Assembly: GCA_041649195.1 (NCBI GenBank)
Contig: JBAZNO010000001.1
Location: forward strand, 1-30,544
Reading direction: 5' to 3'
From: Minisyncoccota bacterium
Lineage (GTDB): Bacteria; Patescibacteriota; Minisyncoccia; Phycocordibacterales; XYD1-FULL-46-19
DNA length: 30,544 bases
How positions within the stretch are numbered: the stretch's first letter is position 1; every line of letters starts with the position of its first letter. Under the pieces are notes generated by a model, which had not been told where the DNA came from, did no database searches, and saw only the letters and a list, made by a program, of their open reading frames with translations. Below, piece after piece: positions 1 through 26,135 of the stretch. A program made the position numbers and the translations under genes.

Positions 1-864
1 GAGGGCGAAAGCGAAGGAGAAGGCGAAACTTTTGAGCTTGTCTTGAATGTTTCTCCAGAAGGTGCGGGTTGGATTGATAAAAATCCGGCGCCACCCTATC
101 TGGCCACGCTCCCTTACACGGTGGTTTGGTTAAATCCAATTGCCAATGATGGCTGGATTTTTGATCACTGGGAAGGTACGTACCTCAATAGCGCCACTGT
201 TTTGATGGATGGAGACAAAACCATCACGGCTGTGTTTGTCAGTGTCGGGGAAGGCGAAGGAGAAGGTGGAATTGAGATTGTTCCAACGATAAATTGGGTT
301 ATTTCCAGGATTTATGAATCGGGTGGATCACCGTATAGTGGCTTAGATGTGGCCATGCGAGCGGACCCGATGGGGAGAGAACTTCGAACTCTTATTAAGT
401 TTGATCTCTCCTCAATTTCTTCTGGCACGCAAATTGAAAGTGCTGTCTTGCGTTTATACGCATTGGAACAGATTGAGTATACATCAAGTTGGATTATGGT
501 TAGTCGGGTAATTGAAAATTGGGATCCCGTCTATACCACCTGGACAACACGCATTAATTCTTTGGAATGGGCAACTCCCGGTGGGTCATTTACTGGTAAT
601 GATCATATTTCAATTCTGTCTAAATATGGTGGTACTGGATATGAAGATTCTGGCTCGGGCCCATATAATGAGTGGTTCCAGTTAGACATAACGTCGCTAG
701 TACAGGATTGGGTAGATGGTACCTGTGACAACTATGGTCTAATGCTTTGGCAACCAAATGGTGATTTTCATTATCAAAACCAAGAAATTGATTTCGCTAC
801 GCGCGACGACGCCGATGTATCGCTAAGGCCCAGACTGGTGATATCTGTTGCCGGTACGCCCTAA
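1..864 (+). CDS. Modular surface/secreted protein, 5'-partial: InlB-B-repeat-like module, EG-rich linkers, C-terminal DNRLRE domain
   Basis: Frame 1 is open from base 1 (EGESEGEGETFELVLN...), so the gene starts before the window. Motifs: FDHWEG...VLMDGDKTITAVF (B-repeat-like); LIKFDLSSI...I.SA.L.LY, W.TPGG, DIT.LVQ.W...NYG..L, RP.L.I (DNRLRE-like). Confidence 0.7.
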   Translation, partial: EGESEGEGETFELVLNVSPEGAGWIDKNPAPPYLATLPYTVVWLNPIANDGWIFDHWEGTYLNSATVLMDGDKTITAVFVSVGEGEGEGGIEIVPTINWVISRIYESGGSPYSGLDVAMRADPMGRELRTLIKFDLSSISSGTQIESAVLRLYALEQIEYTSSWIMVSRVIENWDPVYTTWTTRINSLEWATPGGSFTGNDHISILSKYGGTGYEDSGSGPYNEWFQLDITSLVQDWVDGTCDNYGLMLWQPNGDFHYQNQEIDFATRDDADVSLRPRLVISVAGTP

Positions 865-922: not shown

Positions 923-968
923 TTTATCCCCACTTTTGTATACTGTGCGAGATTGGATATCGCACAAT
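923..968. repeat. 46-bp repeat, copy 1 (TTTATCCCCACTTTTGTATAC + TGTGCGA-core-TCGCACA-AT)
   Basis: 923-950 is identical to 1303-1330 and 960-968 to 1340-1348. The 9-nt core here is GATTGGATA. Confidence 0.95.
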
Positions 969-1302: not shown

Positions 1303-1348
1303 TTTATCCCCACTTTTGTATACTGTGCGATATCCAATCTCGCACAAT
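1303..1348. repeat. 46-bp repeat, copy 2, hairpin core inverted
   Basis: Same flanks as 923-968. The core TATCCAATC is the exact reverse complement of the copy-1 core. Confidence 0.95.
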
Positions 1349-1358
1349 TAAAGGTTTT

Positions 1359-2549
1359 TTAGGTGATTACTCCCCCGCCGAGGCAGGTTTTACCAGAGTA
1401 GAGAACAAGGGATTGGCCCGGGGTGGCAAGTTGGGGTTGGTCGAAAGTTATTGTGGCGGTGCCTTTTTTGGGGTCAATTTGGGTTAATTGACAGGGTTGG
1501 AGGGGTTGGCGATAGCGGACGCGACCCCAAAGCGGGCGCCCGAGTAAGCCCGCCAAGGGTAACCCTTGAGCTGCTTTTAAAGGGTTACCCTTGGCGGTGG
1601 CGGGCAGCTTACTAATCCAATTTGTTTTTTCGATTTTTACTTCTAATTTCTCAGCGCTGATTAAATGGGGGTTTGAAGAAACGGTGAGGGTATTTTTTTT
1701 AATATCTTTGGCAATAATATAATAAGGCTTTTCGTCCGGGGCCTTGGTGAAGGTTTCGAAGCCGTGTCGTTCGCCCAAAGTGAAAAAGGTCGCTCCATCA
1801 TGTCTCCCAATTATCTCTCCCCTTTCATTCAAAACATCCCCGTCTTTTTCTTTGATCTCACGCTTCAAAAAATCTTTAAAATCAATTTGGCCAACAAAAC
1901 ATAGGCCCTGACTATCTTTTTTAAGAGCATTAGGCAAACCAAATTTCTTAGCTAAGGCGCGGACTTCGGTTTTTGTTTTGTTGCCAATCGGAAACAAAAT
2001 TTTGGCCAATTGCTCTGGTTTTAAATTCCACAAAAAATAAGTCTGATCTTTAGCGGTATCTTTTGACTCGCCAAACAAAAAGTCAGTCTTGCCTTCTCTC
2101 GGTCGATGAGGGGGATTCGAGACCAAGCCTGCTTTTTGTCTGGCTCGTAAAGATTCTTTCTGTGATAAGATTTGACTGTAATGCCCGGTAGCAACAAAAT
2201 CTGCACCGTGCGCTATCGCCCAATCATAAAATACTCCAAACTTAATATGTTTGTTGCACATTACATCAGGGTTAGGCGTGCGGCCGGCCTTATATTCGGC
2301 AATAAAATAATCCACTACTTTTTTCTTGTATTCCCGACTTAAATCAAGAGTAATGAGGGGGATGTCTAAATGGGCCGCGGCTCGTCTTGCCTCCCTCCTT
2401 TCTTCGCGCCAGGTGCAAATAAAACCAGAGGGTTCCCAAACTTTAATAAACACTCCTATCACTTTATACCCGGCCTTTTTCAACAAAGCCGCGCTGACTG
2501 ACGAATCAACGCCCCCTGACATCCCAACATAAACGCACTTAGCCTTCAT
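1359..2549 (-). CDS. mnmA: tRNA 2-thiouridine(34) synthase MnmA
   Basis: VGMSGGVDSSV, TPNPDVMCN..IKF, ATGHY, KDQTYFL, KKDSQGLCF, PGQS.V.Y...CLGGG. Start moved to ATG 2549 (MKAKCVYVG); the upstream TTG lies in an AT-rich promoter-like stretch. Confidence 0.95.
   Translation of the reverse strand: MKAKCVYVGMSGGVDSSVSAALLKKAGYKVIGVFIKVWEPSGFICTWREERREARRAAAHLDIPLITLDLSREYKKKVVDYFIAEYKAGRTPNPDVMCNKHIKFGVFYDWAIAHGADFVATGHYSQILSQKESLRARQKAGLVSNPPHRPREGKTDFLFGESKDTAKDQTYFLWNLKPEQLAKILFPIGNKTKTEVRALAKKFGLPNALKKDSQGLCFVGQIDFKDFLKREIKEKDGDVLNERGEIIGRHDGATFFTLGERHGFETFTKAPDEKPYYIIAKDIKKNTLTVSSNPHLISAEKLEVKIEKTNWISKLPATAKGNPLKAAQGLPLAGLLGRPLWGRVRYRQPLQPCQLTQIDPKKGTATITFDQPQLATPGQSLVLYSGKTCLGGGVIT
1550..1597. 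repeat. 48-bp in-frame palindromic insertion in mnmA
   Basis: Perfect 18-bp arms CCGCCAAGGGTAACCCTT / AAGGGTTACCCTTGGCGG with a 12-nt loop; falls in the ..AKGNPLKAAQGLPLAG.. segment. Confidence 0.85.
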
Positions 2550-24812: not shown

Positions 24813-26135
24813 TTATACCAATCGTCCGCGCAATTTTCTATGGTAAGAGAGTGCAAAACGATGGGCCTCGGCATTGGCCTCAATTATCGCCTGACGATAA
24901 TCCCGAATAATGGCCGAACTTTCTAATTGTCGAGGCAAGCCAATTAATCTTGAAGCCTTATGCTTATCATCTTTAGCCACCCCAATTACAACACATGCCC
25001 CCAAATCCCAAGGGTAATCCTTGGACAAATTTTGGACGACGTTGAGTTGGATTTGGTTGCCATCAACCACAATAATATCGGGCATTGGCCACTCAGGGTG
25101 ATTAAAACGTCGCTCGAGAATTTCGCGCAGATTTTCGGGATCATTGATTCCCACTTCTGCGTTATTTCTGCGTTTCGTCTGCGTCCGTCCGCGTAATTTA
25201 AATTTCTTGTATTCACTTCTCTGCATTTCACCATCTTGCCACACCGTCATTGCCCCAGTCGTGTTTTTACCCGATAAGTGGGCAATGTCGTAGGCTTCAA
25301 TTCTAATTTGAGCCCGAGGTGAGTCCTTAAGTGAGCCCAAGGTCTCTCCTCGGGCACCTTTTGCCTTCAACAACGACACATCCCGAATATGATTTAACGC
25401 AAAAATTTGATCGCGAATTTTTCCCGCTTTTTCAAATTCTTTTTTCTTGGCCAAAACCTTCATCCCGCGTTCAAGATTTTTTATCACTTCTTTTTTCTTC
25501 CCCTCAAAAAATAATTTAATATTCCGCACAATCTTGCGATAATCAGTTTTTGAAATCTCACCAGTACAAACTCCCGGACAAAGGCCAATTTGTTTGTTAA
25601 AACAAGGCTTGCCAGAATTTGGCAGACATTTATCTCTATACGGAAAAATTTTGCGGATAATCTTCAACGCCTCTTTCATCTCTGCCCCATAGGGAAATGG
25701 CCCAAATTGGTCTTTTATCCCCAGTTTTGTATGGTCTATCGAAGTCGAACTTCGATAATTTTTACTCTCTAATTCCCGGCCACGGATTGGGAGAATGCGC
25801 GGAAAGTCTTCGTCAGTGATAATCACATACCAATAACTCTTATCATCCTTCTCGCGAGTGTTATAAGGTGGTTGATGTTTCTTAATTAATTCGGTCTCCA
25901 ACAACAAGGCCTCCAAAACTGAATCCGTTTCCTGCCACTCAATTTTATTTGCTAAAGCAAGCATTTGGGTAATTTTAGGACCCCGAGTCTCCCCTAAATC
26001 TCCAACAAAATAACTCTTCACTCGATCTTTAAGCGAAGTTGCTTTGCCTATGTATAAGATATCTCGCCCACGTTTAAAAAAATACACCCCAGGCGAGTCG
26101 GGCAAATTATGGCATTTTAAGTCTTGACTAAGCAT
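24813..26135 (-). CDS. uvrC: Excinuclease UvrC, short form with no HhH tail recognised
   Basis: LPDSPGVY, LYIGKATSLKDRVKSYF, EALLLE..LIK...P.YN, FGPF, RIEAYDIAH.SG, PDIIVVDG, EAHRFA. Confidence 0.93.
   Translation of the reverse strand: MLSQDLKCHNLPDSPGVYFFKRGRDILYIGKATSLKDRVKSYFVGDLGETRGPKITQMLALANKIEWQETDSVLEALLLETELIKKHQPPYNTREKDDKSYWYVIITDEDFPRILPIRGRELESKNYRSSTSIDHTKLGIKDQFGPFPYGAEMKEALKIIRKIFPYRDKCLPNSGKPCFNKQIGLCPGVCTGEISKTDYRKIVRNIKLFFEGKKKEVIKNLERGMKVLAKKKEFEKAGKIRDQIFALNHIRDVSLLKAKGARGETLGSLKDSPRAQIRIEAYDIAHLSGKNTTGAMTVWQDGEMQRSEYKKFKLRGRTQTKRRNNAEVGINDPENLREILERRFNHPEWPMPDIIVVDGNQIQLNVVQNLSKDYPWDLGACVVIGVAKDDKHKASRLIGLPRQLESSAIIRDYRQAIIEANAEAHRFALSYHRKLRGRLV
25156..25194. repeat. 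Four ~11-bp-period TC(T/C)GCGT units in uvrC
   Basis: Units at 25156, 25167, 25178 and 25188; peptide RGRTQTKRRNNAE. Confidence 0.65.
25312..25355. repeat. Palindromic insertion in uvrC
   Basis: GCCCGAGG-T-GAG-T-CCTT...AAGG-T-CTC-T-CCTCGGGC; peptide ARGETLGSLKDSPRA. Confidence 0.75.
25714..25757. repeat. Partial third copy of the 923/1303 repeat plus a 21-bp hairpin inside uvrC
   Basis: TTTATCCCCAGTTTTGTAT (18/19 identical to 923-941), then GGTC and TATCGAAGT-CGA-ACTTCGATA. Confidence 0.75.

What the first reader, a model, noticed from the sequence alone, without database searches (positions are those of the whole stretch)
25714..25757. The cassette-flanking repeat reappears inside uvrC, attached to a different hairpin
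Seen: 18 of 19 nt match the conserved left part of the 923/1303 repeat, followed after 4 nt by a perfect 9-bp hairpin unrelated to TGTGCGA/TCGCACA; it is read in frame on the minus strand (YRSSTSIDHTKLGIK). Inference: TTTATCCCCA-TTTTGTAT is a recognition end that travels with interchangeable hairpins, linking the cassette repeat to the coding mini-elements.
Basis: partly seen in the sequence, partly recalled or inferred. Interest (0 to 1): 0.7.

Follow-up and report, generated by a model that had tools for sequence, protein, structure and literature searches.

The report
Transposase-linked hairpin repeat inside uvrC
A 50-base stretch read as 15 amino acids in the DNA-repair gene uvrC of a tiny-genome (CPR) bacterium is a copy of the hairpin repeat that flanks a hairpin-binding transposase-like gene elsewhere in the genome. 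It sits in a floppy protein loop and has kept its DNA-level shape.

Summary
At 25714-25732, 18 of 19 bases match the 923/1303 repeat. After 4 bases comes a perfect 9-bp hairpin (25737-25757). The stretch is read in frame as UvrC residues 127-141.

It is not chance and not old UvrC sequence. It is a solo copy of a three-part element: L module, hairpin, A/T-rich R module. That element forms the left end of a single-copy Y1/HUH (RAYT, IS200-like) transposase-like gene on contig C70.

Congeners carry the same element at the same uvrC site. More distant UvrCs lack it.

The claim that the hairpin is "unrelated" fails. Orthologous uvrC copies form a graded series from TGTGCGA..TCGCACA to the window's hairpin. 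That exact hairpin flanks a second RAYT lineage in a congener, which this assembly lacks.

The "recognition end with interchangeable hairpins" idea is partly supported. L is conserved at a fixed distance from the hairpin across RAYT lineages, and far better than synonymous sites. Its core is also DnaA-box-like.

Hairpin types at orthologous sites often match each genome's own RAYT flanks, so copies are homogenised or replaced.

This is a new variant of REP/RAYT systems, resembling Rickettsia's in-frame palindromic elements. An earlier follow-up in this scan reached the REP/RAYT reading for the 923/1303 pair.

The parts
25714..25736 (+). L module (TTTATCCCCAGTTTTGTAT plus GGTC spacer). Its core TTATCCCCA is DnaA-box-like. 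Read on the minus strand as D-H-T-K-L-G-I-K.
   Evidence: 18/19 to the copies at 923 and 1303. L is conserved 5' of the hairpin at RAYT left ends in five congeners. It is 16-18/19 identical among the L-bearing uvrC orthologues L118, L119 and L121 (L120 keeps 14 contiguous bases), although 4-fold sites are only 26-52% identical.
25737..25757 (+). Hairpin, type 2 (9-bp stem, 3-nt loop). Encodes R-S-S-T-S-I on the minus strand.
   Evidence: The identical hairpin occurs at own C14:1617-1649, with a 28-nt identical run, and in congener G006 (L037). A near-identical hairpin flanks G006's RAYT-2 gene.
25758..25765 (+). Degenerate R module (A/T-rich remnant of AATAAGGGTTTTT, missing the GGG core). Encodes K-N on the minus strand.
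   Evidence: Comparison with full L+H+R copies at the same uvrC site in L118, L119 and L121, and with C70:1238-1297.
24813..26135 (-). Host gene uvrC (short, 440 aa, typical of CPR/Paceibacterota).
   Evidence: Pfam UvrC_RNaseH_dom 6e-28, UVR, GIY-YIG. Homologues are named UvrC / excinuclease ABC subunit C.
923..968 (+). Intergenic family copy (L plus hairpin type 1, no R).
1303..1360 (+). Intergenic family copy (L plus hairpin type 1 with flipped loop, plus R), at the 3' end of mnmA.
   Evidence: The orthologous site in G008 (L040) carries G008's own hairpin type.

Best explanation
The stretch is a solo copy of a roughly 50-60-nt REP-like mini-element built of three modules. L is [C/T]TTATCCCCAnTTTTGTAT. 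H is a hairpin. R is AATAAGGGTTTTT. The same L-H-R unit forms the left end of a single-copy Y1/HUH tyrosine-transposase-like gene (RAYT-like) at C70:545-1219, whose 3' end carries the hairpin again.

The element entered the linker after the GIY-YIG domain of UvrC in an ancestor of this genus-level clade. It entered in one of its three stop-free frames and survives because it codes for a disordered surface loop.

Inferred: such copies are made and kept alike by the RAYT acting on single-stranded hairpin DNA (as in IS200/IS605 and REP systems), or by gene conversion between copies. On this reading L is the part of the end that holds the cleavage or recognition site at a fixed distance 5' of the hairpin foot.

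The window's hairpin variant belongs to a sister RAYT lineage that was not found in this assembly, so this copy is probably an orphan.
For: Shown:
- The family has 3 further L-bearing copies and 7 exact type-1 hairpins in 0.59 Mb.
- The C70 gene matches Pfam Y1_Tnp at 8.8e-8. Its best PDB hit is E. coli TnpA-REP (4ER8), with the HUH and Y..NP motifs aligned.
- That gene is flanked 5' and 3' by the hairpin. Its two paralogues (C36, C20) are each flanked by their own hairpin class.
- Orthologous RAYT loci in G003, G008, G002 and G007 carry L+H+R at the 5' end.
- uvrC of relatives carries the full canonical element at the same codon position, translated in the same frame (KNPY..YTKVGIK). G004's uvrC holds the exact 23-nt type-1 hairpin.
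- On the UvrC tree the element is confined to one 17-row clade (SH-aLRT 93), carried by 12 of 17 rows and by none of the 13 outside.
- Stem pairs covary across 29 distinct copies: GC/TA 14/12, 13/6 and 14/12.
- L is conserved far above synonymous sites.
- Residues 129-135 are coil with pLDDT below 50, and the strand I140-F147 matches the ancestral IKYxFGPF.
Against: - No transposition or cleavage has been shown.
- Copy numbers are very low for a REP family (7 plus 2 hairpins).
- The NCBIfam RAYT model scores 43 bits, below its 80-bit cut-off.
- There is no GTAG tag 5' of the hairpin.
- The window's hairpin type does not match this genome's own RAYT flanks, and no cognate RAYT-2 was found (the assembly is 90% complete).
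- Part of L (ATAAA, coding I-K) may be ancestral UvrC sequence rather than inserted DNA.
- Quasi-palindrome correction during replication could mimic compensatory stem changes without selection.
Confidence: 0.75

Rival explanations
1. The L module is a DnaA box and the element is a host-used or DnaA-dependent cis element rather than a mere passenger. It could be a dispersed DnaA-binding site, or a site coupling RAYT expression to replication. The uvrC copy would then be kept for DNA-level function.
For: - The L core TTATCCCCA is 8/9 to the TTATCCACA consensus (established DnaA-box consensus; my knowledge).
- L variants stay in that sequence space: perfect TTATCCACA in G007's RAYT left end and at C11:6517 beside a type-1 hairpin, and TTGTCCACA at C14.
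- The same 9-mer lies in the AT-rich dnaA-dnaN spacer (C7:6129) with two more box-like sites about 22 nt apart.
- TTATCCACA and TTATCCCCA are each about 4-fold over-represented, 22 and 20 copies against about 6 and 5 expected.
- A second box-like site (ATATCCACA) sits between the -10 and the ATG of RAYT-1.
- L is conserved in uvrC beyond synonymous expectation.
Against: - An 8/9 match inside a 20-nt conserved motif has a prior chance of order 1%, but it was noticed post hoc.
- G002's L is 2 mismatches off.
- The C36-type RAYT and more distant RAYT loci lack it.
- No binding data exist.
- The oriC assignment rests only on gene order and AT-richness.
Confidence: 0.15
2. Each genome acquired its uvrC copy separately. 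The linker is an insertion hot spot that is hit repeatedly, by this family and by others, rather than one old insertion later homogenised.
For: - The same uvrC site holds unrelated palindromic inserts in G006 (the ..TSSEPEV.. type), G010 and G003.
- The uvrC hairpin equals the same genome's RAYT-flank hairpin in G007, G002 and G004.
- IS200/IS605-type enzymes insert next to short specific targets (PMC3333891).
Against: - Same orientation, same frame and the same boundaries in all family-bearing orthologues.
- The element is confined to one clade of the UvrC tree.
- G008 and the window genome carry hairpins that do not match their own RAYT flanks.
Confidence: 0.07
3. The peptide is ordinary ancestral UvrC sequence and the DNA match is chance or convergence.
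For: The I-K codons at the end of L align with an ancestral IKY/IKF strand in distant UvrCs.
Against: - An 18/19 match is expected about 2e-4 times in this genome (own arithmetic). The reversed control gave 0 hits.
- There is an identical 28-nt run with C14.
- The same L plus type-2 hairpin occurs at an unrelated locus in G006.
- 13 of 13 UvrCs outside the clade lack it.
Confidence: 0.03

Closest known systems
REP / REPIN sequences with their RAYT (REPtrons; E. coli TnpA-REP, PDB 4ER8; PMC2817692, PMC3116915, PMC3333891, PMC5581495)
   Same: - A Y1/HUH transposase-like gene, one copy per lineage, sits at a conserved locus.
- It is flanked on both sides by short imperfect-palindrome repeats that are also scattered through the genome.
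- Different RAYT paralogues pair with different hairpin classes.
- A conserved motif lies 5' of the hairpin foot.
   Different: - Copies also lie inside protein-coding genes and are translated, whereas REPs are by definition extragenic.
- Copy number is 7-10 rather than hundreds.
- There is no GTAG tag; instead a 20-nt L module with a DnaA-box-like core.
- The protein is about 220 aa with a C-terminal extension and scores below NCBI's RAYT cut-off.
- The host is a 0.6-Mb CPR genome. The full-text searches found no paper linking RAYTs with Patescibacteria/CPR or describing in-frame palindromic repeats there.
Rickettsia palindromic elements (RPEs; Ogata et al. 2000, as summarised in PMC10969869)
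   Same: Palindromic selfish repeats inserted in frame into unrelated housekeeping genes of a reduced genome. They add peptide segments at positions compatible with the fold.
   Different: - RPEs are about 100-150 bp and have no known cognate transposase.
- The element here is 45-60 nt and is visibly the end of a RAYT-like locus.
- Sequence relatedness to RPEs was not tested.
IS200/IS605 (IS608, ISDra2) ends and their derivatives
   Same: A subterminal hairpin sits roughly 20 nt from the left boundary (19 nt in IS608, from my own knowledge). The Y1 enzyme acts on single-stranded DNA. The cleavage site is read through a guide 5' of the hairpin foot (PMC3333891).
   Different: - No multi-copy full-length element: each RAYT lineage occurs once per genome.
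- The dispersed copies are solo left ends, not left-end plus right-end pairs.
- Cleavage and guide sites have not been identified.

Membership tests
REP/RAYT system (REPtron) | A Y1/HUH tyrosine transposase-like (RAYT) gene is present | tested here: met
   C70:545-1219(-), 224 aa. Pfam Y1_Tnp 8.8e-8, 32.7 bits against a 23-bit cut-off. Top PDB hit is 4ER8 TnpA-REP with the HUH (HFH) and Y..NP motifs aligned, E 0.063.
REP/RAYT system (REPtron) | The protein passes the curated RAYT equivalog model | tested here: not met
   NCBIfam NF047646 REP_Tyr_transpos scores 43 bits; the cut-off is 80.
REP/RAYT system (REPtron) | The RAYT gene is flanked by the palindromic repeat that is dispersed in the genome (abundant flanking 16-mers; PMC5581495) | tested here: met
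   The type-1 hairpin lies 5', 3' and inside the C70 gene, and its 14-mers occur 7 times in 0.59 Mb. The same holds for the C20 and C36 paralogues with their own hairpins.
REP/RAYT system (REPtron) | Conserved GTAG (or CGTC) tetranucleotide 5' of the hairpin foot (PMC3333891, PMC3733652) | tested here: not met
   The feet read GTATAC, GTATAG, CCATAC or GTATGGTC. No GTAG.
REP/RAYT system (REPtron) | Repeats are extragenic | tested here: not met
   This copy is translated within uvrC. A copy lies in frame inside the RAYT gene itself. A C20-type hairpin is in frame at 25008-25024.
REP/RAYT system (REPtron) | One RAYT of a lineage per genome, vertically inherited | tested here: met
   One orthologue at 70% identity or more in each of G002, G003, G004, G007 and G008. 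The 3' neighbourhoods are alike in G003 and G008.
REP/RAYT system (REPtron) | RAYT binds and cleaves its single-stranded REP | not testable with these tools
   Needs protein biochemistry.
IS200/IS605 insertion sequence | Full-length element (left end, tnpA, right end) present in several copies | tested here: not met
   Three paralogues at only 41-45% identity, each single.
Rickettsia palindromic elements | In-frame palindromic insert in housekeeping genes; unit about 100-150 bp | tested here: inconclusive
   In-frame insertion is met. The unit here is about 45-60 nt. Homology to RPEs was not tested.
DnaA box | 9-mer close to TTATCCACA that is also used at the organism's origin | tested here: inconclusive
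   The L core matches 8/9, and the identical 9-mer lies in the dnaA-dnaN spacer. No binding evidence.

The most novel reading that the evidence does not exclude
The L module is a working DnaA box. The hairpin elements of this CPR clade would then be composite 'DnaA box plus transposase hairpin' units that tie RAYT activity (which needs single-stranded DNA at forks) to replication initiation. They would scatter DnaA sites through the genome, even inside genes. Copies at orthologous coding sites would be actively overwritten, so protein loops are continually rewritten by a DNA-level system.
Probability: 0.2. Interest if true: 0.8.

Novelty: new variant of a known kind. Interest (0 to 1): 0.55.

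Why it matters
REP/RAYT systems are known as extragenic, high-copy features of large proteobacterial genomes. Here the same logic appears in a 0.6-Mb CPR genome with almost no intergenic space, and the repeats are tolerated inside essential genes as translated loops. That explains part of the odd lineage-specific inserts that pepper CPR proteins.

It also gives a natural experiment. The same element sits at the same codon in many genomes next to RAYTs with different hairpins. With that one can ask whether RAYTs maintain, replace or homogenise their repeats, which is an open question for REPINs.

The conserved L module offers a concrete candidate for the recognition or cleavage site, and a possible link to DnaA.

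Tried and rejected
- Promoter reading of L (a TATACT -10 within L): rejected. The spacing does not fit, and the RAYT promoters are extended -10 boxes downstream of the hairpin.
- Rfam scan of the window: only two tRNAs, nothing at the element.
- Chance or ancestral reading: rejected.
- 'Unrelated hairpin': rejected.
- A C20-type link through L: only the two RAYT-adjacent C20 hairpins have a TTATCC-like motif 5' of them; the dispersed C20-type copies do not. L is therefore not a universal partner of all hairpin classes.
- Search for a RAYT-2 orthologue in this genome: none; the best hit is RAYT-1 at 52%.
- Literature searches for CPR/Patescibacteria RAYTs or in-frame palindromic repeats returned nothing relevant.
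- Antisense terminator: the hairpin followed by a T-run on the + strand matches the terminator pattern. I give it no weight without transcript data.
- One Pfam call failed on a wrong frame and was repeated.

Full report
**Observation.** The window is contig C1 of a 590-kb, 86-contig, 90%-complete genome. Its proteins match Paceibacterota/Vogelbacteria (CPR) records.
- Bases 25714-25732 match the 19-mer of the repeats at 923 and 1303 in 18 of 19 positions.
- In the whole genome only four places match at two mismatches or fewer, and none matches the reversed control.
- Four bases later comes a perfect 9-bp hairpin with a 3-nt loop, 25737-25757.
- On the minus strand the stretch is in frame in ORF 24813-26135. 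This is a 440-aa short UvrC with GIY-YIG, UVR and UvrC-RNaseH domains. The stretch gives residues 127-141, YRSSTSIDHTKLGIK.

**Anatomy of the repeat.** Comparing all copies shows three modules. L is [C/T]TTATCCCCAnTTTTGTAT plus 2-4 nt. H is a hairpin. R is AATAAGGGTTTTT.

In this genome the type-1 hairpin (TGTGCGA-N9-TCGCACA) occurs seven times with an identical 23-nt sequence, and a loop variant occurs once more at C67:460.
- L+H+R: C70:1238-1297 and C1:1303-1360.
- L+H: C1:923-968.
- H+R: C11:6547 and C14:1686.
- H alone: C70:506 and C70:1043.

The uvrC copy is L plus a type-2 hairpin plus an R remnant that has lost its GGG core. A second type-2 copy lies in an intergenic region at C14:1617-1649. 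It shares a 28-nt identical run with the uvrC copy.

**Link to a transposase-like gene.** C70:545-1219 (minus strand) encodes a 224-aa protein.
- It matches Pfam Y1_Tnp (IS200-like) at 8.8e-8.
- It matches NCBI's REP-associated tyrosine transposase model at 43 bits, below the 80-bit cut-off.
- Its best solved relative is E. coli TnpA-REP (4ER8). The match is weak, but the HUH and tyrosine motifs align.
- L+H+R lies directly 5' of the gene, followed by an extended -10 box and the ATG. The hairpin recurs just 3' of the stop.
- A further copy lies in frame inside the gene (LCDIQSRT).

Two paralogues (C36, C20; 41-45% identity) are each flanked on both sides by their own hairpin class. The C20 class is the commonest repeat of the genome, and it occurs in frame in uvrC at 25008-25024.

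This is the REPtron layout: a RAYT flanked by the repeats it is thought to spread (PMC2817692, PMC3333891, PMC5581495). An earlier follow-up in this scan (e1-5316851) reached the same reading for the 923/1303 pair. I arrived at it independently.

**The uvrC site in relatives.** Distant UvrCs have 22-23 residues between RGxxL and FGPFP and no repeat. Close relatives carry the element at the same codon position, in the same orientation and frame.
- L118, L119 and L121 hold full L+H+R copies, read as KNPY..SKSNF..YTKVGIK.
- L120 holds L+H.
- G002, G008 and G004 hold H+R.
- G004's uvrC contains the exact 23-nt type-1 hairpin.

The frame used is one of the three stop-free frames of the canonical element. 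On a UvrC tree built without the insert columns, the element is confined to one 17-row clade (SH-aLRT 93). Twelve of the 17 rows carry it. The exceptions are nested inside the clade, and none of the 13 outside rows has it.

The peptide is therefore not ancestral UvrC, but the insertion is old: orthologues are 68-78% identical in protein. The same site holds other, unrelated palindromic inserts in G006, G010 and G003, so it is also a tolerant hot spot.

**The hairpin is not unrelated.** The orthologous uvrC hairpins form a graded series. It runs from type 1 (G004) through TGTGCGAAGTCCAACCTCGCACA (L120), TTTTCGAAATCCAACTTCGAAAA (L119) and TTATCGAAGTCCAACTTCG.. (L118) to the window's TTATCGAAGTTCGACTTCGATAG.

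Across 29 distinct family copies three stem positions switch between G-C and T-A (14/12, 13/6, 14/12), and the stem stays paired in 22-29 of 29 copies. The type-2 hairpin, preceded by an L module (TTATCCACTTTTTACCATAC), flanks both sides of a second RAYT lineage in congener G006. That lineage is 51% identical to the C70 protein. G006 also has L plus the exact type-2 hairpin at another locus (L037). This genome has no closer match to that second lineage than its own C70 gene, at 52%. The uvrC and C14 copies are therefore orphans here, unless the gene lies in the missing 10%.

**Copies evolve together.** In G007, G002 and G004 the uvrC hairpin is identical over 22-24 nt to the hairpins flanking the same genome's RAYT, although these types differ between genomes. 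In G008 and in this genome it is not.

A second orthologous site behaves the same way. At the 3' end of mnmA, this genome has type 1 (its RAYT type) and G008 has G008's type.

Four-fold synonymous sites of uvrC are only 26-52% identical between this genome and its orthologues. Yet L is 16-18 of 19 identical in L118, L119 and L121, and L120 keeps a 14-nt identical run. The one freely varying L position is the same in coding and non-coding copies.

So the DNA sequence, not the peptide, is what is kept. The cause could be constraint, gene conversion, or repeated replacement; I cannot tell which. Replication-slippage 'correction' of quasi-palindromes could also produce paired stem changes without selection.

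**Effect on the protein.** In an AlphaFold2 model built from 30 sequences (mean pLDDT 74), residues 129-135 are coil with pLDDT below 50. The strand I140-F147 corresponds to the ancestral IKYxFGPF. The hairpin-coded part is thus a floppy loop in the linker after the GIY-YIG domain. The last codons of L (I-K) may partly be ancestral sequence or a target-site mimic.

**What L might be.** L keeps a constant distance of 20-23 nt from the left boundary to the hairpin foot. It does so beside two RAYT lineages and, in a shorter form, beside the C20 RAYT gene. This recalls the IS608 left end, where the cleavage site lies about 19 nt 5' of the hairpin and is read by a guide at the hairpin foot (PMC3333891; the 19-nt distance is from my own knowledge).

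Separately, the L core is 8/9, and in some copies 9/9, to the DnaA-box consensus. The same 9-mer lies in the AT-rich dnaA-dnaN spacer with two further box-like sites about 22 nt apart. Both 9-mers are about four-fold over-represented. This was noticed after the fact and is untested.

**Verdict.** 'Unrelated hairpin' is wrong. 'Recognition end' is plausible but unproven. The thing works like a REP/RAYT system, but it fails three defining features of classical REPs: it is not extragenic, it has no GTAG tag, and it does not reach the curated RAYT score. Its in-frame life style is that of Rickettsia palindromic elements (PMC10969869). I class it as a new variant of a known kind.

**Limits.** All genomes are metagenome bins. 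The relatives are kin, not independent samples. The tree used a quick search. No expression or biochemical data were used.

Noticed in passing
window 24980-25024 (minus strand, in uvrC): A second in-frame mini-element lies in uvrC: hairpin CCAAGGATTACCCTTGG plus a conserved tail, read as ..KDYPWDLGACVVI.. . It is the hairpin class that flanks the RAYT paralogue at C20:6605-7237, with 10 or more copies genome-wide.
   Followed up: partly
G000 C70:1043-1065 (L004): The type-1 hairpin lies in frame inside the RAYT-like gene itself (..RLCDIQSRT..). It is present in the orthologues of G003 and G004 and missing from those of G008, G002 and G007.
   Followed up: partly
G000 C7:5955-6172: Likely replication origin: the AT-rich dnaA-dnaN spacer holds TTATCCCCA (6129), TTATCCAAA (6152) and TTATTCACA (6174) about 22 nt apart. 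A perfect TTATCCACA lies at the dnaA 5' end (7570).
   Followed up: partly
whole genome G000: TTATCCACA (22 copies, about 6 expected) and TTATCCCCA (20 copies, about 5 expected) are each about 4-fold over-represented. 13 of the 22 perfect boxes lie outside long open frames, several of them 30-35 nt upstream of -10-like boxes.
   Followed up: no
L126 (G004 RAYT 5' flank): The 5' hairpin of G004's RAYT has another small hairpin nested in its loop, and no L module upstream.
   Followed up: no
uvrC linker of G006 (L152/L043), G010 (L009), G003 (L023): The same UvrC linker position holds unrelated palindromic inserts in other genomes: the ..TSSEPEV.. type in G006, ..PPDLGLARGLAG.. in G010, and ..YQLKAKS.. 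in G003. The site is an insertion hot spot.
   Followed up: partly
G000 C22, C44, C11:117; L138, L151: Another hairpin family (TGAGCC-CGAAGTCCAACTTCG-GGCTCA, source of the ..SSEPEV.. peptides) shares the core CGAAGTCCAACTTCG with variants of the family studied here.
   Followed up: no
G000 C67:460-482: A loop variant of the type-1 hairpin (same stem, loop GACCCAACC) lies inside a 227-codon open frame (20-700, minus strand).
   Followed up: no
window 25737-25766 (+): On the strand antisense to uvrC, the hairpin followed by ATTTTTAC fits the intrinsic-terminator pattern.
   Followed up: no
genus level (G005, G006 versus G000, G002, G003, G004, G007, G008): Two alternative RAYT lineages exist in the genus. 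G006 has RAYT-2 but one orphan type-1 hairpin element (L138). This genome has RAYT-1 but two orphan type-2 elements.
   Followed up: partly
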